Assembly: GCA_030390025.1 (NCBI GenBank)
Contig: CM059453.1
Span: forward strand, 7,750,001-7,814,000
Direction of reading: 5' to 3'
Origin: Squalus acanthias
Lineage: Eukaryota
Length of the DNA: 64,000 nucleotides
How positions within the stretch are numbered: the stretch's first letter is position 1; each line of letters opens with the position of its first letter. Position numbers and translations under genes: made by a program. Positions 3,629-62,241 of this stretch are shown piece by piece. Under the pieces are notes generated by a model. It searched no databases. It worked only from the letters and a program-made list of their open reading frames with translations, and was not told where the DNA came from.

Positions 3629-3677
3629 GAAGAAGACAAGAGGTACCACTGGTGTCCCCTTAACCAACAACGATTCG
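3629..3677 (+). CDS. Gene A cytoplasmic exon 1 (R)KKTRGTTGVPLTNNDS; alternative donor after 3716
   Basis: Pyrimidine tract+CAG acceptor at 3626-3628 and GTGAGT donor at 3678; phase 2 in, phase 0 out; matches gene C exon 60641-60689. Confidence 0.75.
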
Positions 3678-4311
3678 GTGAGTTACTTTGTTGTGTAGAC
3701 CCCATTTAACACCGAGGTAAGTGAGTGGATGGCAACGGCCCAGCATCCGATGGAGTTACCCCTGTCTGATATTGGCACTGTTTGTAACCAGAGTGAGTCA
3801 CATTAACCGTGCATTTCAAAGGGTCAACAGGTCATCCAGAAAAATGTTTGACTGTGTTTTTAAGTGGTGGAATCAGCAGCTCAAACTACTAACAGAAAGT
3901 GATGTGCTGGCCATGTCCTGGTCAATGCATCGTGCATTTTCCCTGCAGTGGATTTCTATTGAATTCAACGTGGGTCGAAGGGTATCGATTTACCGTGTCA
4001 CGACATATATTAACCAGAATAATGTTTACACTCCCCTCACCCACGACATTACCTCCGGTGGTTTAAATTATCATCAAGATCGTATAGTTTCAGGGGTTTG
4101 AGAGGATCAAATAGAATTATATTTCTCTGACATTATCTACATTGTCCTCCCTGGATTTTAAGGCGCTATATTACCGCGAGGCGGCAACAATCCGCGCGAG
4201 GAGCCTGGGTGAGCAATAGGCTCGCATTTTCAAGCCCGGACAGGTTTTAAATCCGGGGTCTTAATTCAATATCCAGCCCCGACTCCCACCCGAACTAGAC
4301 TGCAATCATTG

Positions 4312-4775
4312 GCTATAATAAAAGCTGAAAATGCAGGAAATACTCAGCAAGTCGGGCAGCATCTGTTGAAGATGGAACCGGTTTTAAGCAAGTGCAGGGG
4401 CAGAGAAAGGGGGAGGGGAGGAAACGATAAAAGTGAAGGTCTGTGATAGGGTGGAAGGCAGGAGAGATTAAATGACAAAACAGATGATGGTGCGAGGCAA
4501 AATGAGATAGTAATAGGACAAGTGAAGGAACATAAGTTGGGCCGAGAGGAGGTGTAAATGGCAGCAGCAGAACCATCACCAAAAACTGCTGTCCGAAACA
4601 ATGGGGGCAGTGATGATGATCTGAAATTGTTAAACTCGGTGTTGAGTCCAGAAGGCTGTAAAGTGCCTATTCGAAAGATGAGGTGCTGTTCCTCGAGTTT
4701 CCATTGAGTTTCATTGGAACAGTGTAGGATGCTGAGGACAGAGAGGTCAGAGTGGGAGTGGAGCAGAGAATTATA
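4312..4775 (-). mobile_element. Penelope-like element 3' fragment (GIY-YIG C-terminus + UTR)
   Basis: Minus strand ~4619-4772 translates ...HSDLSVLSILHCSNETQWKLEEQHLIFRIGTLQPSGLNTEFNNFR, typical of the end of a PLE endonuclease. Confidence 0.8.
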
Positions 4776-5015
4776 CTCAGGCTCTCTCTCGCAATTGCCC
4801 CAGCAGTCGGGTAAATGTTGAGGAGTGGGGAATACTATCGGCGCGGCAGTACTCAGGGCCAGGGGAAGCCAAGGCGTCCTTTTAGGGACAGAAGGAGCTC
4901 AATAGGACAATTAGAACGGTGGCAGAGTCGGAATAAAGCGGGTTAGTCTGGTACAGGAAGCGCACTGTCACCCGGTTCAGTATCTCCACATCTAATGCAC
5001 TACTTTCTGTTATAG

Positions 5016-5183
5016 AGACAAGACATGTATGGAGACACGGGTGTGAAAGGGGCTACATCAAAAAGGTCAGCACAAAGTGAAGAGGTCCTGTATGCAGCTG
5101 TCAATTTTTCAAAAGTTCACAAGCAAGAGCAATATCTCCAGAACGAGGAGACAAGTGAATACGCCGCAATTACATTTAAATGA
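5016..5183 (+). CDS. Gene A terminal exon with ITIM (VLYAAV) and ITIM-like motif (SEYAAI)
   Basis: TAG acceptor 5013-5015; translates RQDMYGDTGVKGATSKRSAQSEEVLYAAVNFSKVHKQEQYLQNEETSEYAAITFK*, the Siglec-type tail layout. Confidence 0.88.
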   Translation, partial: RQDMYGDTGVKGATSKRSAQSEEVLYAAVNFSKVHKQEQYLQNEETSEYAAITFK

Positions 5184-20530: not shown

Positions 20531-22437
20531 TTGATTTAATTATTAACCTGCCGATGCACAATCCTTTCGTCTGCACACCCCAAATACAGCTGCCGTTCTA
20601 CATACCCCACAATTAGTGTCAGGACCGATTTTAAGTAGAATTGGACGGGTGAATGACTATTGGTCGCGGGGATGCTGCAAAGTGACCATGTGAAATTCAC
20701 TCTCACTGACTCTTCTTCACTTCTTTATTATCCTTGAGGGAGTGGAATAACCGGGAGGCACTTCCGAGAAGGCACTGTTCCCTTTCCTGAATTGCCGAAC
20801 CCAGAGATAGTCCAGAGAAACTGGCATTGCACCGGGATTGCATGTTCAATTTAGTGCTTATATATGCTAGAATGTTAAAAACAGTCACATTCAGAAAGTC
20901 ACGTGGTGTGTTCCTGCTGGACAATTATCATCCTCTGTACCGATTGCTCATTCCTCAGTTCTTATATTGTATTTTCATTCACTGCCCGATGATATTTTAT
21001 ATGTTGTAACAGCCTTGTACTAACTGGTTTGTAAGCCAGTGATCCCCATCCTGTAATGCGGGCTTCTGTTGTCTCGTCAAAGGCTTCTTCTTTCTCGCTT
21101 TACAAAACTGTTTGATAATCTTTGGTTTTCAATTCTGCTGTATTCTTCTCCAAAAAATGTTCACTACTATCTTCACCCCACAGACAGCAACTGACCTGTT
21201 TTGCCTTTTCAACAGTTCCGGGTGTTCTACAAGGCTTTGTGTGCCCGGGATGTTCAAGAGCCCTGATTTATCAGTCGCGGCTGCCGAGCCCCTCTGATTG
21301 TGTGCGTCGGAAAAAGCCGGAGAATTAAATATCTTTCCTGTGTGGAGAAGTCCAATTAGTAGGAATAGAACGCTCATCATATTGTAATGGGAGAGCGGCA
21401 GAAAAATAAGCAATTTCCTCAGGAAAGTGTTTCGGATTTCAGATTTTGAATTTTGAAAATGGAAAAGAGGGAGTTGTTCAAACTGCAAGATGCTCATTCG
21501 AGGTGCTTTACTGAGATATATAAGGTAAGGCTGCGATTGATCACTAACCCCTTCATGGTAGCAGTGATACGGTCCTCTTATCTTCCAACTAATCTGAACT
21601 GATTCTGCTTCTTAATCAGATGCGAAATGCGCCCAGCTTGAAGCTGGAATGTCTTCGAATGAGGTTCCCGATTGTATCCAGGATTTGATCCCACTGATCA
21701 ATTTGCAGGGATTTGTTCCGGTAGATAAAAATATCCACATTGTTTCCAGCAGCATTGACACTCCAATCTGAAATCTCAAGTGACGCCTCACAGTTCTAGT
21801 ATTAAAGACAGAAACTTCATAAACCCGTCATTGGAGCAACTCGGATCTCAATGAGTTAATTTCAGCAGATTTCATCTCGCTGCAGTGTCAGTATAAACAG
21901 CTGAATCACTTCTATAAATGGCACTTTACCCACTTGAAACTGTTTACTGATATACTCCTTTGTATATTTTGACATTTCAGATAAGTGTTGTGCTCCCGAA
22001 CTACTGAAGGTGATCAACCCACACGTCTGCAGACAACGGCTACAAGACTAACCACAGCTTCACACTTCAAACACTTACACTTCAAGGGCTGATAAATAGC
22101 TCAGTGTTTGGGCGTTGTGAGTCGGGGCGTCTGAAGCTGGTGGAGAGGCTGGTTTAAATATTGCAATCTAAAGTGCCACCGCCTGTCCTGTAACTGTACA
22201 GATGATGAGGGGGCTGGGTTCATCTCTGCTCAGGGTTAATCAGAAGTAGCTGGGCCTCATCATATCCTGTAACTGAGGGCCAATCACTGATGCACACTGT
22301 CATATTCGAAGTTGCCCCAGATTTCCAGCAGTTTTGATCATCAACATTTGAGGAGTGGCACAAGCTGTCTGAGCTATCACGGCTCCCAATGATTGGTGGG
22401 TGGGTGGCGAACCGCTGACCTCCTAATACTTTGATTC

Positions 22438-22971: not shown

Positions 22972-23014
22972 ATGAAGAGTATTAGATTGATCTCCATTCT
23001 GATATTTAGCGAAG
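22972..23014 (+). CDS. Gene B leader exon [14 protein letters not shown](V)
   Basis: ATG, hydrophobic core and phase-1 donor G|GTAAAA; identical in gene C. Confidence 0.82.
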
Positions 23015-26000
23015 GTAAAATATTCATTTTAATAATTAATGTCAGAAGCGAAATCCGTTGTGTGGGAAATTAACACGTTCATTGTTTGTGGAGATAGTAC
23101 ATGTTTAGTTGGTAATTTACAAATTCTCGATTTGCCCATTTAATGTATATTTCATTGGAAACTTTATCTTGTATTTTATAAGATTGATTTAATATTTACT
23201 CTATGATTTATCGACTTTCAATTGAATAACTAATGGAATCTGAATAGTTTTAATGAAACTTTCTCGAGTTTTAATGGATGTAATAATGAATATGTTAGTG
23301 GATGTTTAAAGGTTAAATGAATAGTATTTAACTTGTCGGTCAGGGTATGTTTTAATTTCCATGTTATTGCGGATTTCAGTGGGTGTTTAATTTCTATTTT
23401 TTCACCAGTTGTCCATAGTTCACGATGGTCTGTGAAGGTGCCGTGGAATTTATCGCCGGTGAGCTGGTCATGTGCTGAGATCCCGTGTACATTTGATTAT
23501 CCCGCCTATGGCCGCTGTCCACAGGGTATGTGGTTAAAGTGGGTTCCTAAACCTGGTACCTCAGGGTTGTTGATTATCTGTGATTCCCGGGATTCAGAAA
23601 ATTTGGCCTTGAAATATAGAGGGCGAGCTCAGTTCCCCGGCGACTTTGAAAAGAAACAATGTTCCTTACGGTTAAAGGAGATCAGGAAGATCGATGAAGA
23701 TGATTATTATTTCAAATTGAAGATCATCAATGCCAAGAATAAGAAAGAAGGATATTCTACCGAATCTAAGGTCACTCTTTCTATTTTAGGTAATTTTTTT
23801 TATTTGTTCCTTATGTAGTTTATATTCCATCTCGCCTTGCCATTTAATTTTAGCCTAAAATGGATAGTTATCGTGTTACTCTTGGCCCATGTCACAGGCT
23901 ACAGCGGCAGGACTGCTACATTGAATAATACACAGGTGTGTGTTATGTTTTGACTTGAACTGAAATGGGGCGCTGGCCTTCATAGTAACTTGCAGAATCT
24001 CCTTCTGTTGTTCAGTCAGTAAGTGCAATGCTAGATGGCATTGCCATCGCCGAATCCCCCACCATCAACATCCTGGGGGTCACCATTGACCAGAAACATA
24101 ACTGGGCCAGCCATATAAATACTGTGGCGACAAGAGCAGGTCAGAGGCTAGGTATTCTACGGCGAGTGTCTCAACTCCAGACTCCCCAAATCCTTTCCAC
24201 CATCTACAAGGCACAAGTCAAGAGTGTGATGGAATACTCTCCACTTGCCTGGATGAGTTGCAGCTCCAACAACACTCAAGAAGCTCGACACCATCCAGGA
24301 CAAAGCAGCCGGGTTGATTGGCAGCCCATCCACCACCTTAAACATTCACTCCCTCCACCACTGGCTCACCGTGGCTGCAGTGTGTACCATCTACAAGATG
24401 CACTGCAGCAACTCACGAAGGCTCCTTCGGCAGCTCCTCCCAAACCCGCGACATCTTCCACCTCGAAGGACAAGGGCAGCAGGCGCATGGGAAACACCAC
24501 CACCTCCAAGTTCCCCTCCAAGTCACACACCATCCTGACTTGGAAATATATCGGCCGATCCTTCATCGTCGCTGGGTCAAAATCGTAAAACTCCCTCCCG
24601 AACAGCACTGTGGGAGTACCTTCACCAGATGGACTGCAACGGTTCAAGAAGGTGGCTCTCCACCACCTTCTCAAGGACAATTAGGGAGGGCAATAAATGC
24701 TGGCATTGTCAGCGACGCTCACATTCCATGAATCAATAAAAGTAAAGAACGGTTTGTCAAAATCCATTCCCTGAAGGGTGTGGAAATATAAATCAAGATT
24801 TGTACTTCTAATGGACAGGTCAGAGGACATGGTCAATATTAGGAGGGATTTCTTCAATCTAATCATTTACAGGTCCCCATCTCTTAGGGTCATGTTTCAA
24901 AGACTTTGGGCTAAATCAACTTGCACACCATTGGCCATTTTTTAAATTAAAATCTACGGTCCAGGAGCCAGTGGTGAGTGTAGGGAGGTACTGAGGAGGG
25001 TATCAAGGTCGCAGGAATGTACCGGCAGGCAGGAAGATGGCTTGAAGTGTGTCTACTTCAATGCAAGGAGCAACCGGAATAAGGTAGGAGAACTTGGAGT
25101 GTGGATTAGTACTTGGGACTACGATGTGGTGGCCATTACGGAGACATGGTTAGAACAGGGACAGGAATGGTTGTTGGAAGTTCCGGGGTATAGATGTTTC
25201 AGTAAGAGTAGGGAAGGTGGTAAGAAAGGTGGAGGAGTAGCATTGTTAATCAAGGATAGATTAACAGCGGCAGCAAGGCAGTTCGAGGGGGATCTGCCGT
25301 CTGAGGTAATATGGGCTGAAGTTAGAAATAGGAAAGGAGCGGTCACGTTGTTAGGAGTTTTCTACAGGCTCCCAAATAGTAATAGAGATGTGGAGGAAGA
25401 AATTGCAAAGCAGATTATGAATAGGTGTGGAGGTCACAGAGTAGTTGTCATGGGTGACTTCAACTTTCCAAATATTGATTGGAACCTTTATAGGTCAAAC
25501 AGTTCGGATGGGATAGTTTTTGCACAGTGTGTGCAGGAGGGTTTCCTGACACAATATGTGGATAGGCCGACAAGAGGTGGGGCCACATTGGATTTGGTAC
25601 TGGGTAATGAACCGGGTCAAGTGTTTGATTTGTATGTGGGAGAGCACTTTGGAGATAGCGACCACAATTCGGTGACTTTCACTATTGCAATGGAGAGGGA
25701 TAGGGCCATACGGCAGGGCAGGGTTTATAATTGGGGGAGGGGTAATTATGATGCGATTAGGCAAGAATTAGGGAGCATAAGATGGGAACAGAAACTATCG
25801 GGAAATGCACAAACGAAAAGTGGAGCTTTTTCATGGAGCAATTACTGCGTGTCCTTGATAGGTATGTCCCTGTCAGGCAGGGAGGAAATGGCCGAGTGAG
25901 AGAACCATGGTTCACAAAAGAGGTTGAATGTCTAGTCAAGAGGAAAAAGGAAGCGTATGTAAGGATGAGAAAACAAGGTTCAGTTGGGTCGATTGAGGGT

Positions 26001-29000: not shown

Positions 29001-32000
29001 GCACAACATCGAGGGCCGAAGAGCCTGTACTGTGCTGTACTGTTCTATGTTTATATGTTTTCTATGAATGTCCTTCTCTCCTTACAGATAAACCACGGTT
29101 ATCAGTCTCTGGGGAATTGAATGCAGGAAAGCCAGCACACCTGATCTGTTCATTTACCCACAGTTGCCCATCCGCCAACCTTGAATTGATGTGGACCCAT
29201 GACAATGTTGTACCTCCATTTCTGCCAGAGAATAAAACTTCAAAAGAACATGATAACGCTTTCGAGGGTTTCCAGAAGGTTTCATCCACTTTCAACTTCA
29301 ACCCATCACTGGACGATCATGGGAAGATGTTGGGATGTAAACTTATAGTCGACGGTGTCACAGCTACTGATGAAGAAACTCTTACACTGGATGTTAAATG
29401 TAAGTGCCTGCTCTAAGCTACAGTCAACCAACTTGTTGATGAACCGGTTCAATAGATGTCTGTAAGCTAAATATAGTGATAGCTCGCCTGGATAATTGAA
29501 GTTTCTTGTAAGTCACATTATTTGACATTTGCCCCAGACCCATGGAGTAATATTGGTCACTCCAGTGGTGTGGTTTATATGAAATATAATTGCAAAGGAT
29601 TTCAAGGCCTGATTTTTTTTTCAGCCACAGAGTAACTGAAACATACAGGCCAAGGAGAGTCCATTCATGGTCTGAGCTAACTCAGATACATACATAGGAT
29701 ATACGGCACAGAAACAGGTCATTGGGCCCAACGAGTCCATGCCGGCTTTAATGCTCCACTCGAGCCTCCTCCCTTCTTTCCCCATCTAAATCTATCAGCC
29801 TAACCCACTATTCCCTTCTCCCACATATGCGTGTCCACCCTCCCCTTAACTGCATCTCTACTATTCGCCTCAACGACTCCCTGTGGTAGCGAGTTCCACA
29901 TTCTCACCACTCTCTGGGTAAAGAAGTTTCTTCTGAATTCCCTATTGGATTTCTTGCTGACTATCTTATCTTGATGGCTTGTAGTTATGCTCTTCCCCAC
30001 AAGTGGAAACATTCTCTCTGTATCCGCTCTATGAAAGCCTTTCATAATTTTAAAGACCTCTATTAGGTCACCCCTCAGCCGTCTTTTTTCAAGACAAATG
30101 AGACTCAGCCTGTTCACCCTTTCCTTATATATATACCCCCGCATTTCTGTTATCATCCTTGTAAATCTTCTCTGCCCCCTCTGCAGTGCCTCTACATCTT
30201 TTTTTATAATATGGCGGCCAGTTCTCTAAGTGTGGTCTAACCCAGGTTCGATACAGATTTAGCATAACTTCCATACTTTTCAATTCCATCCTCTCGGAAT
30301 AAACCTTAGTGCTTGGTTTGCTTTAGTTATGGTCTTGCTAACCTGTGGCGCAATTTAGCTGGGGCGTTGGTCAGGATTCTACAATTTACCTCAGCAACCA
30401 TGTATAAGAGATGGGAAAGTCCACCCTACTTATTCTGGGAGGAATGGCCACTTGGTTGATGTACCGGAGGAATAGAACCTTACGCAGGAAAACATACAAC
30501 TCTTCAAATCTTTGAAGATAAGAGGGGAAAGAAGGCTTATTTTTGAAATAAGCTTAAGATCTAGTGCCTAAAAGTCTGGAACTGCATTTTGAATTTATAG
30601 TTTGCAAAATAACCACCATATCTTACTTTAATATTCTTCTTTAGTGATCACATATATTGTTTTATTTTCCGCATCCGCACTGATAACCGCATTTAGATCC
30701 AATGGCCTCATCTCTTCCAGATGGCCCACAAAAACCAGCCATCAATTCCTCTATAGCGGCAGTGGAAGGGAGCTCTTTATTATTATACTGCACGGCCCGG
30801 GGGACCATACCAGGCAAGTTAACTTTGGTCCGAAATGGTGAAGAGATCAGCACGTCTTCCACTGGGGAACTGAAGCAGATATTCCACAACATTAGTTCTG
30901 AAGATAAAGGAGAATATTGGTGCGTGGCTGAAAATAACTTGGGCAAAGCGAACAGCTCCACACTCATTTCTGTACAATGTAAGTGGTGTGTCAACCTATC
31001 AAATGTATATTGGGACATCAATCCGTTTTACAGTGATTAGGCATCGGTGTTTCTCCCCCAGTGTTCATACAACTGTCTTAAAACCCGTCAGTAATATTGC
31101 CTGAAATGTCAGGAAAAGAAGGGTTCTTGAACCAAATTCATTGAGTAAATGACACTTTTAAAAACAAACTGGAGACCCCAAGACACAACTCCAGGTAGAA
31201 TGCATCTCTGATTGGCTAAAACCAACTGAATGAATATGTGAGATGTGCAACTACACATTTTCTGTACGGCGGACTGAACCCAGCGGCCCGGATTCATAGA
31301 ATGATAGAAATTTACAGCACAGAAGGAGGCCATTCGGCCAATCGTGTCCGTGCCGCCGACAAAGAGCTATCCAGCCTAATCCCACTTTCCAGCTCTTGGT
31401 CCGTAGCCTTGTAGGTTTCGGCTTCCAATTGGATATCCAGGTACTTTTTAAATGTGATGAGTGTCTCTGCCTCGAACATCCTTTCAGGCAGTGAGCTCTA
31501 GAACCCCACCACCCTCTAAGTGAAAAAATCTCCTCAAATCCCCTCTCAACCTCCGACCAATTACTTTAAATCTATGCCCTTGGTTATTGACCCTTCTGCT
31601 AAGGGAATTAGATCCTTGCTATCCACTTTATTTAGAGCGCTCATAAGTTTATACACCTCAATCATGTCACCACTCAGCCTCCTCTGTTCCAAAGAATACA
31701 ACCCCAGCCTATCCAATCTTTTCTCATATCTAAAATTCCACAGCCTAGGTAAAATTCTCGTAAATGTCCTCTGCACCCCCTCAAGTGCAATCAGATCCTT
31801 CCTGTAGTGTGGTAACCAGAACTGCATGCAGTATTCTAGCTGCGGCCGAACTAGTGTTTTATACAGTTCAAGCACAACCTCGCTGCTTTTATATTCTATG
31901 CCTCGGCTAATAAAGGCAAGGAACCCGTATGCCTTCTTAACCACCTAATCTACCTGTCCTGCTACCTTCAGGGATCTGTGGACATGCACTCCAAGGTCCG

Positions 32001-35000: not shown

Positions 35001-37559
35001 GAGTATAGGCCCAATCTACTCCATCTCTTCTCATAGGACAACCCTCTCATCACACATGTTGCTCCAGGAAATATATGGATTAATTGACTGCTCATTGGCT
35101 CGATGCAATTTCATACCTGAGTTATTGCCTTGCTAGAAATTAGGGGAAAGGAAAGTCTGATGAAGCATTAAATGAATGCAACATTAACTGGTTCTAATCA
35201 AACTCGTTATGTGCAGTTACCTCTCTGCTTAATCTAAACGCCGAAATTGGTTCTATTTAGACACTGCAAACTGCTGTATGGAAACTATCTCAAGCTGGCT
35301 TCTCTTTTTTCAGATAAACCCACAATAGTATCAGGCCCGACCTGCACCAGCTCTGAGGGTGGGGTTTATTGTACCTGCAGTATCAGAGCCAACCCCCCAG
35401 CAAACATCACCTGGGGCATCAATGGGAGAAACATCACTGCGAACAGTTCAGATATCAATATCCTCTCCTCGGGGTTGAAAAGTCACCTGGTGAAGAGCTC
35501 CCTGACACTGACTCAACCAACTGCAACTGAACGCCTGATCTCATGTTTTGGAGTGAACGAGCATGGCGTTACTGTCGGAAAATACCAGCTCCAATCTGGA
35601 GGTATATATTGCATTTTCCTGTAATTTAATTACTGCGAATGTTTCTGTCCATCACCTGTCAGTGACTAACTCAACGGTGTTAGTGTCAGCATGTTCCAGT
35701 TCCACTGAGCTGAAATATCATTCTTATCTGCAAAGTAGGACTGAATCCAATTTTAATTTCAGTAGTGTTTGGGACTGGTTCATGACTGAGCGCTACCTCA
35801 CTGAAAGTTAGGATGGGAATAATTCATGTAAAGTTTAGAGTCTGGTATCTGAATTTGATTATTGTCGCCTTGTTTTTGTGAAGATAGGAGGGTTAAGATA
35901 AAACACTAGTAGCAGCGTGTGATCTTTCATAAAATAAACCCTTCTGACTTAGTGACACACTCGATGAAATCATGTTTCCTCTCATTGTAACGGTAGTGGG
36001 GTACAGTCGATCAGTTCAACATATTTTCACAGATATTTCAGCCGACTGCCGGTTTTGTTATGCTGACGATATTCTGAAAGAACTATACAGTGCGATAACA
36101 CTGACAATGGAGCCAGGAGAACTTCGATAACTGAAAGAGCCGGTTATAGACTGAATTAACTTATCGGATAGCAAGCGAGCAGATCCGAGTATGCGGCGTG
36201 GATTGATGCAGTCTCTCAGGGAGACTGCGTTATTTAATGGTTTGAAGAAGAGCAGGGGAGTTCTGTCTGGTGCCCTGGCCAATATTTATCCCTAAACCAA
36301 TAACACCGAAACAGTTTTATCTGCTGATTTACTTTATGGCTGTTTCTGGGATCTTGCTGCGCGCAATTTTGCGGCCACGTTCCCTATATTACAACGGTGA
36401 CGACACTTCAAAAGTACTTCATTGGCTGTAAAGCGCTTTAGACGTCGGCAAAAGCGCTATGTAAAAACAAGTTCATTTTGTTCTTAACAGCTTCCCGTAC
36501 ATGCTGTTAAATGTTATGTTGAATCTTGGTATAATCTTAGAGCAATAATGAAGAGCACGATTTTTTTTTATATTTTAGGATCATTTTGGAGAATTGTCAT
36601 GCTAATCAGAGCCGCCGTCGCAGTTCTCATTCTGATTGGCATCATTGTCTTGGTGACGATAGAGATTGATTCACACAGGTATGGTTCATATTACTTATTC
36701 TCGTGCTTTAATAAGACAGATTTCAAAAGGACGTGACATCAGGATTTCAGCCCATGAGCAAATATTGCTTAATGTAATTAACCCCAGATATCATTGACCC
36801 TCAATCTCAGCTAAGAGTTGACAAGGGAATGCTTGCTGGACTTCAAGTGTCTTGTGAGGGGAAAGTAGGGGAATGTCAGAAGTTCAGCATCCCATGTCTG
36901 GTCTTTCACTTCCTAGTTCAAAGATTGTACATCAAGGGCCAGTCCAGAACTTGAGTGCAGAATCTAGTCTCTCACTTGAGTGGAGGCGTCGTATTTCATA
37001 CCAGACAATTTAAGCTGAACACGGTTTGGCAGCTCAAATCTCCCGTGGCCATATTGGCGGAGGACCTCATGACTCAGGAGGTCATAAAATGCTCCACAGC
37101 ACGATTGCTGGACACGAAAGGGCAAATTCCGGTGCATTTTTAAGACTTGGCTGAAATTGCAATGGTTATTCTGCACCAGTAGAATGCTCGCTTACCATCC
37201 ATAAAATGTTCAGTGAACACTGAATTTGTCCAAGCAGATCAAGATAGATTTAACCAGCTTCATCAGATAGAGAGAATGCTTTCTTTGGAATTAGGAAAGT
37301 GTAGAGATAGAAAAGAAACGGGTATTAAATCTGGTCGCAGCCAATCAGGAAACATTAACAAGGACGAGTTACTATAGTGCGCCCCCTGTGGTTCAACACA
37401 GGGACACTGGGTGTTGTATTGAAGCGAATTATCTGTAATTAGGAGACGTGAATCATTTGTATTTTCTGTTTCAGGAAGAAGGTAAATATCCCTGTCGTGG
37501 TCTCTCCCACAGACACGGGTGCAGCGATTTACTGTGGGTTGCAGAACCCACTGAACTGA
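22972..37559 (+). CDS. Gene B: Siglec/MAG-like receptor, putative activating type (L-V-C2-C2-C2-TM[Arg]-short tail), 7 coding exons, 488 aa
   Basis: Exons 22972-23014, 23409-23789, 29088-29399, 30721-30978, 35314-35601, 36579-36678 and 37475-37559 join in frame with GT-AG sites (1467 nt including stop). Confidence 0.82.
23409..23789 (+). CDS. Gene B V-set Siglec-type Ig domain
   Basis: [28 protein letters not shown]...CSL, and F strand YYFK without Cys; AG/GT phase 1-1. Confidence 0.92.
24030..24745 (+). mobile_element. Non-LTR retrotransposon 3' fragment (second CR1/L2-group family)
   Basis: [11 protein letters not shown]...[17 protein letters not shown]; the same insertion is in gene C at ~48060-48770. 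Confidence 0.85.
26849..27997 (+). mobile_element. 5'-truncated Penelope-like element (Zn-finger linker + GIY-YIG endonuclease)
   Basis: Open frame 26851-27573 ...[10 protein letters not shown]...NVVYLIRC...WYIGET...RMNEHR...GLNRD; tatc duplicated on both sides within CR1 ORF2. Confidence 0.92.
27908..27945 (+). ncRNA. Minimal type I hammerhead ribozyme of the Penelope element
   Basis: tcac-CTGAGGA-a-ggagc/gata/gttcc-GAAA-gc-TT-gtga: catalytic core, stems I and II, palindromic AAGCTT in place of stem III. Confidence 0.8.
29088..29399 (+). CDS. Gene B Ig domain 2 (C2-set, with extra Cys in HSCP)
   Basis: DKPRLSV...[11 protein letters not shown]...W...DHGKMLGC...LTLDVK; phase 1-1. Confidence 0.92.
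29690..30356 (-). mobile_element. CR1-like LINE 3' fragment (shared with gene C ~49605-50285)
   Basis: Minus ORF ...[17 protein letters not shown]. Confidence 0.88.
30721..30978 (+). CDS. Gene B Ig domain 3
   Basis: YGPQKP...[13 protein letters not shown]...[15 protein letters not shown]; CAG acceptor, GTAAGT donor. Confidence 0.92.
31293..32330 (-). mobile_element. CR1-like LINE 3' fragment, gene B-specific
   Basis: Minus ORF ...[13 protein letters not shown]...; absent from the gene C intron. Confidence 0.88.
32488..35050 (-). mobile_element. Nested CR1 fragments, including an ORF1 (SGNH esterase) remnant at ~33620-34580
   Basis: [11 protein letters not shown]...[11 protein letters not shown] esterase blocks; the outer fragment is uninterrupted in gene C (~51388-51845). 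Confidence 0.82.
35314..35601 (+). CDS. Gene B membrane-proximal Ig domain (C-x8-C-x-C, MAG domain-5-like)
   Basis: [33 protein letters not shown]...SSLTL...SCFGVNEHG; phase 1-1. Confidence 0.9.
36240..36480 (+). mobile_element. DeuSINE/SacSINE1-like 3' fragment
   Basis: Similar to the reverse complement of 165-400. Confidence 0.65.
36579..36678 (+). CDS. Gene B transmembrane exon with Arg ([34 protein letters not shown])
   Basis: TAG acceptor, AG|GTATGG phase-2 donor; Arg codon at 36608-36610. Confidence 0.88.
37475..37559 (+). CDS. Gene B cytoplasmic exon ending in stop ([27 protein letters not shown])
   Basis: CAG acceptor; TGA at 37557-37559, one base before a GTAAGT donor; homologous to 3629-3716 and 60641-60728. 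Confidence 0.75.
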
Positions 37560-39455: not shown

Positions 39456-39623
39456 AGCCAAGACCAGGATCGAAATATTGCTATCAGATGATCTACATCC
39501 AACAATCAGCGCAAAGTGTAGAGGGTCTGCACGCAATCGGTGAATTTTTGAAGTCTTCAAAAACATAAAAGATATCTCCAGAATGAGTAGTCCAGTGAAT
39601 ACACCGCGATTAATTTTAAATCA
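39456..39623 (+). pseudogene. Decayed ITIM exon of gene B (probably now 3' UTR)
   Basis: Aligns to 5016-5183 but has several stops and indels; ITIM Tyr is His (ctg cac gca); acceptor intact. Confidence 0.8.
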
Positions 39624-46999: not shown

Positions 47000-47042
47000 A
47001 TGAAGAGTATTAGATTGATCTCCATTCTGATATTTAGCGAAG
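47000..47042 (+). CDS. Gene C leader exon
   Basis: [14 protein letters not shown], phase 1. Confidence 0.82.
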
Positions 47043-50000
47043 GTAAAATATTCATTTTATTAATTAATGACAGAAGCGATTTTCATTGTGTGGGAAATCA
47101 ACACGTTCATTGTTTGTGGAGATAGTACATGTTTAGTTGGTAATTTACAAATTCCCGATTTACCCATTTAATGTATATTTCATTGGAAACTTTATCTTGT
47201 TTTTTATAAGATTGATTTAATATTTACTCTTTGATTTATCGACTTTCAATTGAATAACTAATGGCATCTGTAAAGTTTTAATGAAACTTTCACCAGTTTT
47301 AATGGATGTAATAATGAATATGTTAGTGGATGTTTAAAGGTTAAATGAATAGTATTTAACTTGACGGTCAAGGTATGTTTTAATTGCGATATTATTGCGG
47401 ATTTCAATGGGTGTTTAATTTCTGTTTTTTCACCAGTTGTCCATAGTTCACGATGGTCTGTGAAGGTGCCGTGGAATGTGTCGGCGGTGAGCGGGTCATG
47501 TGCTGAGATCCCGTGTACATTTGATTATCCCGCCTATGGCCGCAGTCCACGGGGGACGTGGTTAAAGGGGGGTCCTGATCCTGGAACCTCAGGGTTGTTG
47601 ATTATCTGTGATTCCCGGAATTCAGACAAAGTGCCCTTGAACTATAGAGGGCGAGCTCAGTTCACTGGCGACTTTGAAAAGAAACAATGTTCCTTCCGGT
47701 TAAAGGACATCAGGAAGATCGATGAAGGTGTTTATTATTTCATATTGAAGATCATCACCGCCCAGAATACTACAGGAGAATATTCTAACGAAACTAAGGT
47801 CACTCTTTCTATTTTAGGTAAGTTTTTTCATTTGTTCCTTTTGTAGTTTATATTCCATCTCCCCAGTGCCATTTAATTTTTAGCCTAAAATGGATAGTTG
47901 TCGTGTTACTCTTGGCCCATAGCACAGGCTGCAGCGGCAGGACTGGTCCATTGTGTAATACACAGGTGTGTGTTATGTTTTGACTTTAACTGAAATAAGG
48001 CGCTGCCCTTCTTAGTAACTTACAGAAGCACCCTCTGTTGATCAGTCAGTAAGTGCAATGCTAGATGATATTGCCATCGAAGTATCCCCCAACCATCAAC
48101 ATCCTGGGGGTCACCATTGACCAGAAACATAATTGGGCCAGCCATATAAATAATGTGGCGACAAGAGCAGGTCAGAGGCTAGGTATTCTGCGGCGAGTGT
48201 CTCAACTCTGACTCGGCAAATCCTTTCCACCATCAACAAGGCACAAGTAAGGAGTGTGATGGAATACCCTCCACTTGCCTGGATGAGTGCAGCTCCAACA
48301 ACACTCAAGAAGCTTGACACCATCCAGGACAAAACAGCCCGCTTGATTGGCACCCCATCCACCACCTTAAACATTCACTCCCTCCACCACCGGCGTACCG
48401 TGGCTGCAGTGTGCACCATCTACAAGATGCACTGCAGCAACTCGCCAAGGCTTATTCGGCAGCACCTCCCAAACCCGCAACCTCTACCATCTAGAAGGAC
48501 AAGGGCAGCAGGCGCATGGGAACACCACCACTTCCAAGTTCCCCTCCAAGTCACACACCATCCTGACTTAGAAATATATCGCCGAACTTTCATCGTCGCT
48601 GGGTCAAAATCATAGATCTCCCTCCCGAACAGCACTATGGGAGTACCATCAGCACACGGAATGCAGCGGTTCAAGAAGGTGGCTCACCACCACCTTCTCA
48701 AGGGCAATTAGGGATGGGCAATAAATGCTGGCCTTGTCAGCGACGCTCACATTCCATGAATCAATAAAAGTAAAGTGTGTCAAAATCCAATCCCTCAAGG
48801 ATGTGGAAAAATAAATCAAGATTTGTACTTCTAATGGACAGGTCAGAGGACATGGTCAATACTTAGGAGGGATTTCTTCCATCAGATCATTTACAGGCCC
48901 CCATATCATAGGGTCATTTTGCAAAGTCTTTCGGCTCAATCAACTTGCACACCACTGGCCATTTTGAAAATAAAATCTACGGTAACGCGAATGTCCTTCT
49001 CTCCTTTCAGATAAACCATGGACATCAGTCTCGGAGGAATTCATTGCAGGAAAGCCAGCACACCTGACCTGCTCAGTCACCCATAGTTGCCCGTCCGCCA
49101 ACCTTGAATTGATATGGACCCACGACAATGTTGTACCTCCATTTCTGCCAGAGATTAAAACTTCACAAGTACATGATAACGCTTTCGAGGGTTCCCAGAA
49201 GGTTTCATCCACTTTCAGCTTCAGCCCATCACTGGAACATCATGGGAAGAAGCTGGGATGTAAATTTAAAGTCGACGGTGTCACAGCTACTGTTGAAGAA
49301 ACTCTTATACTGGATGTTAAATGTAAGTGCCTGCTCTAAGCTACAGTCTACCAACTTGTTGATGAACCGGTTCTATAGATGTCTGTATGCTAAATATAGT
49401 GATAGCTCGCCTGGATAATCGAAGCTTCTTTTAAGTCACATTATTTTAATTTGCCTCAGACCCATGGAGTAAATTGGTCACTCCAGGGGTGTGGTTTATA
49501 TGAAATATCATTGCAAAGGCTTCCAATGCCTGATTTTTTGCAGCCACAGAGTAACTGAAACATACAGGCCAAGGAGAGTCCATTCATGGTCTGAGCTAAC
49601 TCACATACATACATCGGACATACGGCATAGAAACAGGTCATTGGGATCAAACAGTCCATGCCGGCTTTAATGCTCCACTCGAGCCTCCTCCCGTCTTTCC
49701 TCATCTAAATCTATCAGCCTAACCCGCTGTTCCCTTCTCCCTCATATGCTTGTTCAGCCTCACCTTAAATGCATCTCTACTATTCGCTTCAACCACTCCC
49801 TGTGGTAGCGAGTTCCACATTCTAATCATCTCTGGGTAAAGAAGTTTCTTCTGAATTCCCTATTGGATTTCTTGCTGACTATCTTATATTGATGGCTTGT
49901 AGTTATGCTCCTCCCCACAAGTGGAAACATTCTCTCTGTATCCGCTCTTTGAAAGCCTTTCATGATTTTAAAGACCTCTGTTTGTTTATCCCACAGCCTT

Positions 50001-53000
50001 CTTTTTTCAAGACAAAATAGACCCAGCCTGTTCATCCTTTCCTGATATGTATACCCCCGCATTTCTGATATCATTGTTGTAAATCTTCTCTGCACCCTCC
50101 CCAGTGCCTCTATATCCTTTTTATAATACGGCGACCAGAACTGTACGCAGTTCTCTAAGTCTTGTGTAACCAAGGTTCGATACAGATTTAGCATATATCC
50201 CTACTTATCAATTCTATCCGTCTCGGAATAAACCCTAGTGCTTGGTTTGCTTTCGATATAAACTTGCTGACCTGTGGCGCAATTTAAATGGGGCGGTAGT
50301 CAGGATTCTACAATTTCCCTCAGCAACCATGTGTGAGAGATGGGAAAGTCCACCCTACTTGTTCTGGGAAAAATGGGCACTTGGTTGATGTACCGGAGGA
50401 ATAGAACCTTACGCGGGAAAACATACAACTCTTCAAATCCTTGATGATAAGAGGGGAAAGAATGCTTATTTTTGAAAGAAGCTTAAGATCTAGTGCCTAA
50501 AAGTCATGAACTGCATTTTGAATTTATAGTTTACAAGAAAACCACCATAGCTTACTTTAATATTCTTCTTTAGTTGTCACATATATTGTTTATTTTCCTC
50601 ATCCACACTGACAACCACATTTAGAACCAATGGCATCATCCCTTCCATATGGCCCACAAAAACCAGCCATCAATTCCTCTATAGCGGCAGTGGAAGGGAG
50701 CTCTTCGTTATTATGCTGCACGGCCCGGGGGACCATACCGGGCAACTTAACGTTGTTCCGAAATGGTGAAGAGATCAGCAGGTCTTCCACCGGTGAACTG
50801 AATTATATAATTCGATAAATTAGTTCTGAAAATAATGGTGAATATTGGTGCGTGGCTGACAATAACTTGGGCAAAGCGAACAGCTCCACACAGATTTATG
50901 TACAATGTAAGTGCTGGGTAAACCTTTCAAATGTATATTGGGACATCAACCCTTCTGACAGTGATTAGGAATCGGTGTTTTCCCCCAGTGCTCATACAAC
51001 TGTCTCAAAATCCGTCAGTAATATTGCTAGAAAAGACAGTAAAAGAAGTAGAGTTGAACCAAATTCATTGAGTAAAATACACTTTTAAAAACCAACTGAG
51101 ACCCCGATACACAACTCCAGGTAGAATGTATCTCTGATTTGCTAAAACCAACTGAATGAATATGTGGGATGTGCAAAGGCAACATTTCTGTACGGCGGAC
51201 TGAACCCAGCGGCACTGAATTGTAGAAACATTTTAGTCCGTCACAAAGGTAGACATTTATAGCATTAAATAAAGACACAAACTGAACAGAAGTTATTGAG
51301 GTGTTTACCAGAATTCACATGTTGGAGGAGTTAGCCGGGTTTATTTACAAGATTGTAACTTGCGAATCCACACAACATAAGACTATAGGAACATAGGAAT
51401 TCGCATCAGGTGTTGGCAATTCGGCTCCTCGAGTCTGCTCCGCCATTCAATGAGATCATGGCTGATCTTCGACCAAAACTCCACTTTCCGTCCTATCTCC
51501 ATATCCCTTGATTCCCCAAGAGTCCGGAACTCTATCTATCTCATCGTTGAATATGCTCAATGACTCATCATCCACAACCCTTTGGTGTAGAGAATTTGAA
51601 GATTCAAAACCCTCTGAGTGAAGAAATTCCTCCTTATCTCAGTCTCAAATGGCCGTCCCCTTATCCTGAAACGATGCCCCCTAGTTTTAAGCTCTCCGGA
51701 CAGGGGAAACAATCTTTCAGCATCTACCCTGTCAATCCCCCTCAGAATATCATGTTTCCATGAGTTCATCTCTCATTCTTCTAAACTCCAGCCAGCATAG
51801 GCCTAATCTACTCAATCTCACCTCAAAGGACAGCCATCTGATCACACATGTTATCCCAGGAAATATATGGATCAATTGACTGCTTGATGCAATGTTGTAC
51901 CTGATTAATTGCCTTGCTAGAAACTAGGGAAAGGACGTCTGATTAAGCATTAAATGAAAGTAACATTGAATGGTTCTAATCAAACTCGTTATGTGCAGTG
52001 ACCTCTCTTCTTAATCTAAACGCCGAATTTGGATCTATTTGGACAATGCAAACTGCTGCATGGAAACTATCTCAATTTGACTTCACTTACCTTTTAGATA
52101 AACCCACAATAGTATCAGGCCCGACCTGCATCAGTTCTGAGAGTGGGATTCATTGTACCTGCAGTGTCAGAGCCAACCCCCCAGCAAACATCACCTGGGG
52201 CATCAATGGGAGAAACATCACTGCGAACAGTTCAGATATCAATATCCCCTCCTCGGAGTTGAATAGTCATCTGGTGCAGAGCTCCCTCACACTGACTCAC
52301 CCAAATGGAACTGGACACCTGATCTGTTTTGGAGTAAACGAGCATGGCATTACTGTCGGAAAATACCAGCTCCAATCTGAAGGTATATATTACATTTTGT
52401 TGTAAAATAAGTACTGCGGACGGCTTGGTCCATCACCTGTCAGTGACTAACTGAACGGTGTTAATGTCAGCAAATAACAGTTCCATTCGATATCTGCATG
52501 CCAAATCCAATGGCAATTTAAGGCTGAATTCATGGATATTTTAAGTAGTGTATGGTCTGGCCAACAACTCATTGAATGTTGCGATGGGAATAATGAATGC
52601 ATTTTTAAATGTGTCTCTCATTTCTGGGTTTGTTTATTTTCGAATTAGGAGCAGGAGTAGGCCACACGGCCCCTCGAGCCTGTTCTGCCATTCATTAAAA
52701 TGATGGCAGTTCTGATTACTCCACATTCCCTGCTAACCCCGATAGCCTTTCACCCCCTTGCTAATCAATAATCTATCTACCACTGCCTTAAAAATATTCA
52801 AAGACTCTGCTTCCACCGCCCTCTGAGGAAGAGTTCCAAAGACTCACGACCCTCTCTGAGAAAAACATTCTCCTCATCTCAGTCTTAAATGGGCGTCCCC
52901 TTATTTTTAAACAGTGACCCCTAGTTCTGGATTCTCCCACAAGAGGGAACATCCTCTCCACATCCACCCTGTCAAGACTCCTCAGGATTTTATTTGTTTC

Positions 53001-56000: not shown

Positions 56001-59000
56001 AGGGTGGTAGAGGCAGGAACCCTCACAACATTCAAGAAGCATTTAGATGAGCACTTGAAACGCCATAGTATACAAGGCTAAGGGCCAAGTGCTGGAAAAT
56101 GGGATTAGAATAGGCAGGGCTTGATGGCCGGCGCGGACACGATGGGCCGAAGGGCCTCTTTCCGTGCTGTATAACTCTATGACTTTATGACTATGACTCT
56201 ATATAGGACAGCAATCATAAGACAATTAGTTCAAATTTACACAGGGGACAAAACCATTGCTGAAATGCAGTGTCAGTCTGTGGAAGGAAAAATCATTTCA
56301 AATGATGCCCTCTCTGTGTTCAGTGAACATTGCCCATTAAATGAATAAAATATAACAAGGATTTGCAGGGAGATTAGATGTGGGGTCATTTCCAAGTCAT
56401 CCATCTTATGATTGCCGGTTCAGAGTCCTGTCTGTTTAGGAATAGATAGAAATACTGAACTCTTACGTTTAAGTAGAGAATTTCTAGAAAACGTGCCTGC
56501 ACAAACTGATAAAAGTTATCCTAAAACCATGATGTAATCTTCGAGCAATAATAAACAGCAAAGTCTTTTTGAATATTTTAGGAACATTTCCCGGGGAAAT
56601 TGTCATCCCAGTACTAGCAGCCGCCGGAGTTATACTGCTGATCCTGATCGTGGTGATGGTGCGCAGGTATGTGTGGTTCATAATTACTTAAACTATTGTG
56701 TCAATCACAGATTTGATAGGGGCCATGACATCAGGATATCTGCCTGTGAGAAACTATTGTTTCAAATAATTAACCCATGAGAGTATTGACCCTGAAACTC
56801 AGCTAAGATTTGTAAAGGGGGGTATTCGAGAGGTCAAGTGCTTCTGTGCCGCAAGTAGGGAAGTGTTAAAGGCTCATCTGCCCCTGGTCGCTCTATGGCC
56901 AGTCTATCGCTGGTCTATCGCCGGCCTATCGCTTCTCCCAGCACCAGTAACACCAGAATAATGGTTGTCTAGCCTTTGCCCCGTAGCTTAAGCTTCCATG
57001 TCCAACGCTTTTGCGTTCAAGTATCAAAACAAAACATGAGCACCACATCTAGTCCGACATTGTGGTGGAGTGCGGCATTGTTGGAGATGCCGTCTTTCAT
57101 ACCAGACATTAAATCAGAAACACCATCTGCCTGCTCAAGTGGATATGAAAGATCCCATGATAATATTGGTTGGAGAGCAGTGAAGTTCTCCCTGTGTCAC
57201 GGCAAACATATATCCCCCAATCACTCCAGAAAAGATGCTTAACTCTTCATTTGGTTTATTGTTGTTTATGGGATATTGCTGTGCTCAAAATGGCTTCCAT
57301 GTTTGTCTATAAAACTAGATTCAAGTAATAATTAATTGGCTGTGGAATGCTTTGGGAAGATCCTGAGGTAAAGGCACTATATAATTGAAAGTTTATTATC
57401 CTGGATTTGTCCTTTAACAGCCAACCAACAACTTGCATTCCTATAACATCTTGTAGGAACAGGTGCAAGGGCTTCACAAGGGAGCATAACTCGAACACGA
57501 ATTTAAACAAGCTGATGTAATGAACAGTGATTAAAGTCTTGGTCAGAGACTTGGGGTTTAAGGTGGGTGTAAATGGAGAAGATGGATGTGGAGTCGCGGT
57601 GGAGTCCAAGGAGATGTTTCCAGAGTGTGTGGGCTGAGTGATGGAAGTCACGGCCGCCAATGGAGGGTGATCATAAGAAGCAAAAAGAGGCTGGAATTAC
57701 AACATCGGAGATTTGGAACCGGTGCCGATTGTTGTAGGACCAGAGGCCGTTACAGAGGCAGTGTGGGGGCCATTGATAGTTTTATAAAAATATTAATCTC
57801 TTCAATGGTAAGAAAGTAAAGAAATAAAGGCTTGCATTTAAATAGCGCCTTTTACTACCTCAGCACGTCTCAAAGCGCTTTATAGCCAATGAAGTCATTT
57901 TGAAGTGTAGTCACTGTTGTAATGTAGGAAACGCGGCCGTCAATCCGCGCACAGCAAGCTCCCACAAACAGCAATGTGATAATGACCAGATAATCTGTTG
58001 ATTGAGGGATAAATATTGGACAAACCACTCCCGTAGAACTCCCCTGCTCTTCCTCGAAATAGTGCCATTGGATCTTTTACGTCTGCCCGAGAAAGCATAT
58101 GTAACCTCGGTCGAAAGTCTCATTCGAAAGACGGCACATCCGACAGTGCAGCGCTCCCTCAGTACTGCAGTGGAGGGTCAGCCTGGATTATAGCGCTCAA
58201 TTCCCTGGAGTGGGACTTTGAACCCACAAACTACTTCACTGAGAGGCGAGAGTGCTATCCACTGATCCACGGCTGAAAAGCTACCAGCGGGTAGCTGTTA
58301 GCAGGAACTCAGTATATGTTTATGTTAGTTGTTAGGGTTTAATAGAAAAACAGCGGTATTTGGAGAAACGTGTTATTCTTATCTTTCACTCTTTCTTCTG
58401 AAGCTGTTTAGTTTCACTATGTTTCTTCCAAGGATACTGTCAGAATTTCTTAATTGAAGAAAGGTAGGTTGTTGAATACCATCAACAAAGTAACTGGAAG
58501 CAAGTGAATTTAAATAAATCGACAATTAAAAAGAAGCAGCTAATTTAAATATATGTTAAATAATCACAGAAGATGTTTGTGTTTGGAAAGCCAGATTAGG
58601 GAATTGTTGAGGTTCAGTGGGACCTGGGTGTCCTTGTACACGGATCAATTAAAGTTAACATGCAGGTATAGCAAGCAAATGGTATGTTGATCTTTATTAC
58701 AAGAGGATTTGAGTATAAGATAAAAGACGTATTACAGCAAATATATCGGGCCCTGGTGAGACCACACGTGGAGTATTTTGTACAGTTTTGTAATCCTTAC
58801 CTAAGGAAGGATATACTTGCCATGGAGGGAGTGCAACGAAGGTTCACCAGACTGGTTCCTGGGTTGGGGGGATTGTCCAATGAGGAGAGATTGAGTAGAC
58901 TAGGTCAATATTCTCTAGAGTTCAGAAGAATGAGAGTTGATCACTTTGAAACATAGAAAATTCTTACAGGGCTTGACAGGGTAGATGCAGAGAGGTTGTT

Positions 59001-62000: not shown

Positions 62001-62241
62001 TTATTCTGGTACAGGAAGCGCACTGTCACCCGGTTCAGTATCTCCACATCTAATACACTACTTTCTGTTATAGAGACAAGACATGTATGGAGACACTGAT
62101 GTGAAAGGGGCTACATCAAACCGGTCAGCTCAAAGTGAAGAGGTCCTGTATGCCGCCGTCAGTTTTTCAAAAGTTCACAAGATAGAGCAATATCTCCAGA
62201 ACGAGGAGACAAGTGAATACGCCGCAATTAAATTTAAATGA
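47000..62241 (+). CDS. Gene C: Siglec/MAG-like inhibitory receptor (L-V-C2-C2-TM-ITIM/ITIM-like), 440 aa if the dead D3 exon is skipped
   Basis: Exons 47000-47042, 47437-47817, 49011-49322, 52098-52382, 56582-56666, 60641-60689 and 62074-62241 join in frame (1323 nt including stop). Confidence 0.8.
47437..47817 (+). CDS. Gene C V-set Siglec-type Ig domain
   Basis: [13 protein letters not shown]...YRGRAQFTGD...CSF...DEGVYYFI. Confidence 0.92.
48060..48770 (+). mobile_element. Second-family LINE 3' fragment
   Basis: Equivalent to 24030-24745. Confidence 0.85.
49011..49322 (+). CDS. Gene C Ig domain 2
   Basis: DKPWTSV...LTCSVTHSCPS...HHGKKLGC...LILDVK; intact splice sites. Confidence 0.92.
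49605..50285 (-). mobile_element. CR1-like LINE 3' fragment
   Basis: Minus ORF 49826-50194. Confidence 0.88.
50649..50906 (+). pseudogene. Gene C inactivated Ig domain 3 pseudo-exon
   Basis: Acceptor CAG changed to CAT (50646-50648) and in-frame TAA at 50816-50818; otherwise aligns to 30721-30978. Confidence 0.88.
51388..51845 (-). mobile_element. CR1/HER1-like 3' fragment
   Basis: Minus ORF ...[18 protein letters not shown]. Confidence 0.85.
52098..52382 (+). CDS. Gene C membrane-proximal Ig domain
   Basis: [33 protein letters not shown]...; 285 nt, phase 1-1. Confidence 0.9.
52643..54620. mobile_element. Cluster of CR1 3' fragments in both orientations
   Basis: Tails and ORF ends at ~52643-53000(-), 53186-53865(+, with an inverted tail inside) and 54250-54620(-). 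Confidence 0.78.
54715..56200 (+). mobile_element. CR1 LINE RT-3' fragment
   Basis: [24 protein letters not shown] motifs; (atgact)n tail. Confidence 0.92.
56582..56666 (+). CDS. Gene C transmembrane exon, uncharged (GTFPGEIVIPVLAAAGVILLILIVVMVRR)
   Basis: TAG acceptor ending 56581, AG|GTATGT phase-2 donor; flanks homologous to those of the gene B TM exon. Confidence 0.88.
60641..60689 (+). CDS. Gene C cytoplasmic exon 1; alternative donor after 60728
   Basis: (R)RKTRGTTGVLLTNNDS|GTGAGT. Confidence 0.75.
61315..61832 (-). mobile_element. Penelope-like 3' fragment with degenerate hammerhead (61379-61419)
   Basis: Paralogue of 4312-4775; minus strand reads cagttCTGATGAaaggtcatcgacctGAAActttacatctg. 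Confidence 0.78.
62074..62241 (+). CDS. Gene C terminal exon with ITIM (VLYAAV) and ITIM-like motif (SEYAAI)
   Basis: RQDMYGDTDVKGATSNRSAQSEEVLYAAVSFSKVHKIEQYLQNEETSEYAAIKFK*. Confidence 0.88.
   Translation, partial: RQDMYGDTDVKGATSNRSAQSEEVLYAAVSFSKVHKIEQYLQNEETSEYAAIKFK

What the first reader, a model, noticed from the sequence alone, without database searches (positions are those of the whole stretch)
23714..23716. The essential sialic-acid-binding Arg is absent in both V domains (Lys in B, Ile in C)
Established: Siglecs bind the sialic acid carboxylate via an F-strand Arg in a Y-x-F-R motif. Seen: B has YYFK (AAA, 23714-23716) and C has YYFI (ATA, 47742-47744). Each is one substitution from AGA at the same middle base. 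Inference: the pair has lost or altered sialic-acid recognition and may bind a protein or microbial ligand, as some Arg-less or protein-binding mammalian Siglecs do.
Basis: partly seen in the sequence, partly recalled or inferred. Interest (0 to 1): 0.7.

Follow-up and report, generated by a model that had tools for sequence, protein, structure and literature searches.

The report
Shark Siglec pair lacking sugar-binding arginine
Two neighbouring shark immune-receptor genes, one built to activate and one to inhibit, both lack the arginine that such receptors use to grip sialic acid; the same loss is known from an ape receptor pair and has happened repeatedly in this shark and ray gene family, so it is real but not unique.

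Summary
B reads YYFK (23714-23716), C reads YYFI (47742-47744); both residues align with the essential Arg of sialoadhesin, and neither F or G strand carries another Arg. The genes are a Siglec-like paired receptor set of a cartilaginous fish: B has a transmembrane Arg and a decayed ITIM exon, C a neutral helix and ITIM exons, and their ectodomains are homogenised to about 91% DNA identity. The nearest relatives keep the Arg, so the loss is derived. It is not special: 16 of 29 V domains of this shark and ray family lack it, through at least 3 and most simply 5 changes, including an 11-member Arg-less clade across sharks and rays. Ape Siglec-5/14 is the printed precedent. Two independent hits from AGA are not shown, since AAA and ATA are one step apart. 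Canonical sialic-acid binding is probably gone; a protein or microbial ligand is plausible but untested. Relaxed constraint is a live rival: dN/dS is about 1, C has a dead Ig3 exon, B has radical changes. No expression data.

The parts
23714..23716 (+). Gene B, codon at the essential-Arg position: AAA, Lys (residue 102 of the V exon translation)
47742..47744 (+). Gene C, same position: ATA, Ile
22972..23014 (+). Gene B leader (signal peptide) exon, coding part; identical in C
23409..23789 (+). Gene B Siglec-type V-set exon (Cys 21, 26, 84; Trp 6; extra Cys 36 and 57)
29088..29399 (+). Gene B second Ig exon (C2-set_2-like, carries the extra Cys expected to pair with the V domain)
30721..30978 (+). 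Gene B third Ig exon, intact
35314..35601 (+). Gene B membrane-proximal Ig exon
36579..36678 (+). Gene B transmembrane exon with an Arg codon at 36608-36610 (activating type); closest to the helices of P0026 and P0068
37475..37560 (+). Gene B cytoplasmic exon, one YxxL, stop at 37557-37559
39456..39623 (+). Decayed copy of the ITIM exon behind gene B (frameshifts, stops, first Tyr lost)
47000..47042 (+). Gene C leader exon, coding part
47437..47817 (+). Gene C Siglec-type V-set exon
49011..49322 (+). Gene C second Ig exon
50649..50906 (+). Gene C third Ig exon, dead: acceptor reads AT (50647-50648), in-frame TAA at 50816-50818; length is a multiple of 3, so skipping keeps the frame
52098..52382 (+). 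Gene C membrane-proximal Ig exon
56582..56666 (+). Gene C transmembrane exon, no charged residue in the helix
60641..60728 (+). Gene C first cytoplasmic exon: ITIM-like YxxL, then TAG at 60708-60710; an internal GTGAGT donor at 60690 would bypass the stop in frame
62074..62241 (+). Gene C last coding exon, intact, with an ITIM and a distal ITIM/ITSM-like motif
3629..5183 (+). 3' end of a third, C-like gene (A): cytoplasmic exon 3629-3716 with the same TAG (3696-3698) and last exon 5016-5183; its V exon lies outside the window

Best explanation
B and C are an activating/inhibitory pair of an elasmobranch Siglec-related receptor family. Shown: Siglec-type V domain, no F-strand Arg, no substitute Arg nearby, opposite signalling anatomy, homogenised ectodomains, Arg kept in the nearest relatives. 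Inferred: the Arg was lost on the line leading to B and C (once and then hit again, or spread by gene conversion, or twice); the salt bridge to the sialic-acid carboxylate is gone in C and at best weak in B; the genes still encode receptors (C as a three-Ig form that skips its dead exon) whose V face drifts or diversifies fast. The likely working logic is that of ape Siglec-5/14: the inhibitory receptor sheds the site that sialic-acid-coated microbes exploit, and the activating copy tracks whatever sialic-acid-independent ligand the pair now sees. The ligand is not identified.
For: Register and fold. Arg positions in B and C: none after residue 92; the C-strand position facing the site is Met/Thr. 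Pair anatomy. Homogenisation: leader 100%, intron 1 94%, V exon 91%, intron 2 92%, against 63% for the TM exon and about 70% behind it; B and C V domains are sisters (100/99) while B's helix is closer to those of basking shark P0026 and smooth-hound P0068 (scores 80, 78) than to C's (44). Arg in nearest relatives P0157, P0001, P0003. Frames kept: 0 frameshifting indels in the exons against 7.7 expected from the introns. Arg-less relatives keep ITIM-like tails (7 of the 11 in the Arg-less clade, plus P0006, P0158, P0160), so Arg loss is compatible with a whole receptor. Precedent.
Against: No expression, binding or ligand data. dN/dS between B and C is 1.08 over four exons and 1.74 in V, neither different from 1 (p 0.81, 0.41), which neutral decay also predicts. 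C needs two splice rescues (dead Ig3 exon; TAG in the first tail exon). B carries P16, W19, C36 and D97, seen in none of the relatives (28 or 29 rows per column). In this family position 102 changes 9 times against a median of 8 per column, so its loss needs no special cause. Siglec-6 binds sialylated glycolipids without its canonical Arg (PMC10122656, passages).
Confidence: 0.55

Rival explanations
1. Relaxed constraint or early pseudogenisation: one or both copies are recent casualties of birth-and-death evolution in a tandem array, and the Arg change is one of many neutral hits with no new ligand.
For: dN/dS about 1 and exon divergence equal to intron divergence; C Ig3 exon with lost acceptor and stop; TAG in the tail exon of C and A; radical changes at conserved positions in B, whose end branch is 0.22 against 0.08 for C; Arg loss goes with null alleles or pseudogenisation in human SIGLEC12 and SIGLEC17 (PMC7379906, passages).
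Against: No frameshifting indel in about 1,280 aligned exon bases where introns predict 7.7 (P about 4e-4, overstated because most intron indels are single bases); all splice sites of B intact; B has no stop (chance 0.10 under neutrality); both lesions of C can be spliced around in frame, and relatives without the third Ig exist (P0160, P0026, P0030); leader exon identical.
Confidence: 0.28
2. Sialic-acid or other anionic-glycan binding persists by another route: Lys102 with neighbouring lysines in B (104, 109, 111, 112), or a second pocket as in Siglec-6.
For: Lys keeps the charge; B's F-G hairpin is lysine-rich; Trp 6 and a G-strand Tyr 115 are kept in both; the D-strand Arg is kept; Lys is the commonest substitute among other V domains (10 of 41); Siglec-6 precedent.
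Against: C has Ile and no added charge; from memory (not found) Arg-to-Lys mutants of sialoadhesin and CD22 lose binding; the D-strand Arg is conserved in Arg-bearing and Arg-less relatives alike (28 of 29) and is most simply structural.
Confidence: 0.12
3. The whole shark family stopped being sialic-acid lectins long ago, and the Arg still present in some members is a relic.
For: Position 102 is as variable as an average column; the G-strand aromatic is not conserved in the family; Arg in 13 of 29 against 170 of 211 outside.
Against: Arg persists in both rays and several shark orders (12 of 17 in B and C's sub-family), more than drift alone would easily leave over that time (inference).
Confidence: 0.05

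Closest known systems
Great-ape Siglec-5/Siglec-14 pair with the essential Arg changed to His or Tyr (PMC7379906 and PMC6288428, passages read)
   Same: Adjacent inhibitory and activating Siglec genes, ectodomains homogenised by gene conversion, basic residue in the activating helix, essential Arg lost in both partners.
   Different: Cartilaginous fish; no orthology shown; conversion tract covers all four Ig exons here against two domains in primates (PMC4042635, passages); substitutes are Lys and Ile; no ligand known here, whereas the GBS beta protein is a sialic-acid-independent ligand of human Siglec-5/14.
Human Siglec-XII (R122C) and SIGLEC17P (PMC6288428, PMC7379906, PMC13358205; passages)
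   Same: Arg loss in an otherwise Siglec-like V domain, accompanied by further gene lesions.
   Different: Single recent human events; here the loss recurs across a family and persists in an old clade.
Sialoadhesin (PDB 1QFO) and MAG (PDB 5LFV) V domains
   Same: Best sequence and fold matches; same Cys pattern, A-strand Trp and F-strand register.
   Different: 25-28% identity; no Arg; F-G loop about four residues longer; MAG orthologues form a separate clade (100/99).
RefSeq-predicted shark and ray proteins auto-named MAG-like or Siglec-5/8/12/13/14-like (for example XP_067831352.1, XP_078093182.1, XP_078392811.1)
   Same: Same exon set, tail motifs and, for two of them, the same activating helix; 59-65% identity in V for the nearest.
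   Different: The nearest keep the Arg; the names are automatic and none of my searches found a paper on this family.

Membership tests
Siglec (functional sialic-acid lectin) | N-terminal V-set domain of Siglec fold followed by C2-type Ig domains, single transmembrane helix | tested here: met
Siglec (functional sialic-acid lectin) | Cys on strands B and E, none on strand F (intra-sheet disulfide; definition recalled) | tested here: met
   Cys 26 and 84, Phe 101, aligned to sialoadhesin; the bond itself is inferred
Siglec (functional sialic-acid lectin) | Extra Cys pair linking domains 1 and 2 (MAG C37-C165, PMC5150538) | tested here: met
   Cys 21 in V and the extra Cys in the second Ig exon of both genes; sequence level only
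Siglec (functional sialic-acid lectin) | Essential F-strand Arg | tested here: not met
   Lys in B, Ile in C; no other Arg after residue 92
Siglec (functional sialic-acid lectin) | Aromatic residues flanking the site (A-strand Trp, G-strand Trp/Tyr) | tested here: inconclusive
Siglec (functional sialic-acid lectin) | Sialic-acid-dependent binding | not testable with these tools
   needs a binding assay
Paired receptors of the Siglec-5/14 type | Linked genes with near-identical ectodomains and divergent membrane and tail exons | tested here: met
Paired receptors of the Siglec-5/14 type | One partner with a basic transmembrane residue and no ITIM exon, the other with ITIMs | tested here: met
   C's distal ITIMs depend on an unproven internal splice donor
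Paired receptors of the Siglec-5/14 type | Co-expression, adaptor (DAP12 or FcR gamma) coupling, shared ligand | not testable with these tools
   no expression or functional data obtained
MAG (Siglec-4) orthologues | V domain groups with MAG | tested here: not met
   six MAG-type rows form their own clade (100/99) without B or C
CD33-related Siglecs | Descent from the mammalian CD33-related cluster (tree, synteny) | tested here: inconclusive
   deep forks of the V tree are open and long branches meet; no flanking genes in the window and no genome held

The most novel reading that the evidence does not exclude
Sharks and rays have their own Siglec-derived receptor family that has given up the sialic-acid Arg about five times, including a clade that has lived without it since before sharks and rays split while keeping inhibitory tails. 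B and C would be a recent, independent replay in an activating/inhibitory pair, a fish parallel of ape Siglec-5/14, showing that paired Siglecs and escape from sialic-acid recognition are as old as jawed vertebrates. In the old clade a basic residue on the facing C strand (7 of 11) may have moved the anion-binding site by one strand.
Probability: 0.3. Interest if true: 0.65.

Novelty: new member of a known kind. Interest (0 to 1): 0.38.

Why it matters
Why Siglecs keep losing their essential Arg is argued mostly from a few primate cases. This family offers several independent losses, close Arg-bearing relatives as controls and a natural activating/inhibitory pair, so the question (escape from sialic-acid mimicry, a switch to protein ligands, or plain decay) becomes testable with a small panel of Fc fusions. 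For the two codons alone the news is modest: a known kind of event in a new lineage.

Tried and rejected
No whole genome is held, so other paralogues of this species, gene A's V exon and synteny could not be examined. The RNA search listed no RNA holder, and no reads were laid, so expression, splicing and base accuracy stay open. A single-sequence fold gave a poor model (pLDDT 61) and was replaced by the alignment-based one; no coordinates were returned, so side-chain neighbours are inferred from Ig topology (recalled). A search for short relatives (69-221 residues) found none among 2 candidates. Positive selection on V: not significant. Two independent Arg losses in B and C: not shown. A single origin of all Arg-less forms: rejected (AU p 7e-5, Arg column left out, group defined by the residue after a first tree had been seen). 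Compensation by a C-strand Arg/Lys: absent in B and C; in the family 8 of 16 Arg-less against 2 of 13 Arg-bearing, but only 3 independent pairs, sign test p 0.5, so unproven. One search stopped on a frame error (its V figure and the identities were printed; its C1 dN/dS is void; redone); the B helix scores were in the wrong frame and were redone. Literature: no paper on this family or on Arg loss in shark Siglecs (0 papers; 1, unrelated by listing; 6 held, 5 listed; PMC8455134 checked by passage, one passing mention; 0; 4, unrelated by listing); the library lacks most subscription journals and no supplements were opened, so this is weak evidence of absence. Arg-to-Lys mutagenesis data were not found and are recalled. 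Earlier scan notes: nothing relevant.

Full report
Observation. The exons encode V-set Ig domains. Their best matches among solved structures are sialoadhesin, Siglec-10, Siglec-8, MAG and CD33, and the gap-free F-strand alignment places Lys (B) and Ile (C) on the essential Arg of sialoadhesin. A model of B's domain built with 44 aligned sequences (pLDDT 86) matches sialoadhesin and MAG best (Z 18.3 and 18.2). Arg residues lie at 5, 35, 60, 70, 72, 87, 92 (plus 38 in C), none on the F or G strand, and the C-strand position that should face the site (topology recalled, not measured) is Met or Thr.

What the genes are. The window holds a tandem array: the 3' end of gene A, all of B, all of C. 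B has leader, V, three further Ig exons, a membrane exon with an Arg in the helix, and a short tail exon with one YxxL and a stop; a decayed copy of the ITIM exon lies behind it. C has the same ectodomain plan, an uncharged helix and an intact last exon with an ITIM and a distal tyrosine motif. B and C are 94% identical in intron 1, 91% in the V exon and 92% in intron 2, but 63% in the membrane exon and about 70% behind it. Their V domains are sisters (100/99), whereas B's helix scores 80 and 78 against helices of basking shark and smooth-hound proteins and 44 against C's. In the smooth-hound the activating-type and inhibitory-type V domains are again sisters (100/98). This is the pattern of concerted evolution described for primate Siglec-5/14 (PMC4042635, passages). 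The activating form is thus old, and in those two species it keeps the V-domain Arg.

Relatives. All close matches are shark and ray proteins. The nearest, from the sevengill shark (59-65% identity in V) and bamboo shark, read Y-Y-F/I-R, so the loss in B and C is derived. I counted 29 V domains from 13 species, leaving out isoforms, proteins without a full V (P0161, P0162, P0170) and one long-branch row (P0166, Arg): 13 have Arg, 16 do not. With the Arg column removed, the tree needs 5 changes (3 forced by well-supported branches; 4-5 over bootstraps), and one origin is rejected (AU p 7e-5): the B/C pair, zebra shark (Lys), horn shark (Ala), catsharks (Thr), and an 11-member clade from 8 species of sharks and rays with Ile, Ser, Leu or Thr (98/93, 93/89). 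Seven of these 11 carry ITIM-like tails, two are partial, two have short tails. Outside the family, 41 of 211 anchored Siglec-like V domains among the hits also lack the Arg; these rows are related to each other, so the contrast (13 of 29 against 170 of 211) is descriptive. Within the family the position changes 9 times, the median column 8 times, structural anchors 0-1 times.

How special is the double change? Not very. AAA and ATA are one step apart, so one loss plus a second hit equals two losses from AGA in cost; the ancestral codon is unseen. Of 56 conserved columns both genes deviate in 11, with different residues in 2. dN/dS is 1.74 in V and 1.08 over four exons, neither different from 1.

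Are the genes alive? Against: C's third Ig exon has lost its acceptor and has a stop; C and A share a TAG in the first tail exon where relatives read on; B has Pro16, Trp19, Cys36 and Asp97, seen in no relative. For: no frameshifting indel in the exons where the intron rate predicts 7.7 (the rate is inflated by single-base indels); B's frame and splice sites are whole; C's dead exon can be skipped in frame, giving an architecture that relatives have; an internal consensus donor would bypass the TAG in frame. No transcript evidence was obtained (one search listed no RNA holder, which says nothing either way).

Mechanism. Established: the Arg makes the salt bridge to the sialic-acid carboxylate, and R118A abolishes MAG binding (PMC5150538, passages; PMC13358205, passages). 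Inferred: C cannot bind canonically, B at most weakly (Arg-to-Lys data recalled, not found). Most likely (0.55) the pair are working receptors of opposite sign that no longer read sialic acid as self and, if they have a ligand, see it through the same fast-changing face. Rivals: relaxed or decaying copies (0.28), retained anionic-glycan binding by Lys or a second pocket as in Siglec-6 (0.12; PMC10122656, passages), a family that never depended on the Arg (0.05).

Comparison with what is known. It works like, or decays like, the Arg-less primate Siglecs: ape Siglec-5 and -14 both carry Arg-to-His or Arg-to-Tyr changes, human Siglec-XII and SIGLEC17P have lost the Arg too, and Siglec-5/14 bind a bacterial protein without sialic acid (PMC6288428, PMC7379906; passages). 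By descent and fold B and C are Siglec-family genes; they fail the Arg test and should not be filed as sialic-acid lectins. They are not MAG orthologues; their relation to CD33-related Siglecs is unresolved. Five searches found no paper on this shark family, in a library that lacks most subscription journals; no supplements were read.

Verdict. Real, derived, and of a known kind. The two codons are one instance of a recurrent loss; the wider family pattern, with its old Arg-less clade and conserved activating partner, is the more interesting lead. Interest 0.38.

Noticed in passing
P0019, P0030, P0032, P0044, P0047, P0102, P0104, P0112, P0159, P0163, P0164: An Arg-less clade of Siglec-like receptors shared by sharks and rays; 7 of 11 have Arg or Lys just before the C-strand Trp, the position that should face the lost Arg. 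Possible shift of the anion site; not statistically separable from ancestry.
   Followed up: partly
window 60641-60728 and 3629-3716: C and A share a TAG right after the first ITIM-like motif and a consensus internal donor 18 bases before it; two tail forms are possible (short with one ITIM, or long with the two distal motifs).
   Followed up: partly
window 36579-36678; P0026, P0068: The Arg-bearing membrane exon is shared by three shark lineages, so an activating Siglec-like receptor is old in sharks.
   Followed up: partly
window 23579-23581, 23516-23518 and 47607-47609: Both V domains have a Cys at residue 57 (seen in 0 of 29 relatives; mostly Tyr) and B a further Cys at 36: unpaired or a new disulfide.
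   Followed up: no
window 47766-47795: C has two N-glycosylation sequons in the F-G hairpin (residues 110 and 117) that B lacks; they could shield the old site.
   Followed up: no
window 6308-6815, 21666-22054, 46121-46666, 63392-63876: A repeated element (68-71% between copies) lies behind the ITIM genes and before both leaders; two copies hold a 111-codon open frame, and the one scanned (6468-6800) had no Pfam match.
   Followed up: partly
window 24961-29065 and 9320-12298: LINE-type reverse transcriptase and endonuclease remnants (recognised from memory, not scanned); the first is an insertion in B's intron 2 absent from C and holds a nested GIY-YIG-like frame at 26836-27570.
   Followed up: no
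P0001: This 1066-residue database protein looks like two tandem genes fused by annotation (two V domains, two helices, two tails).
   Followed up: no
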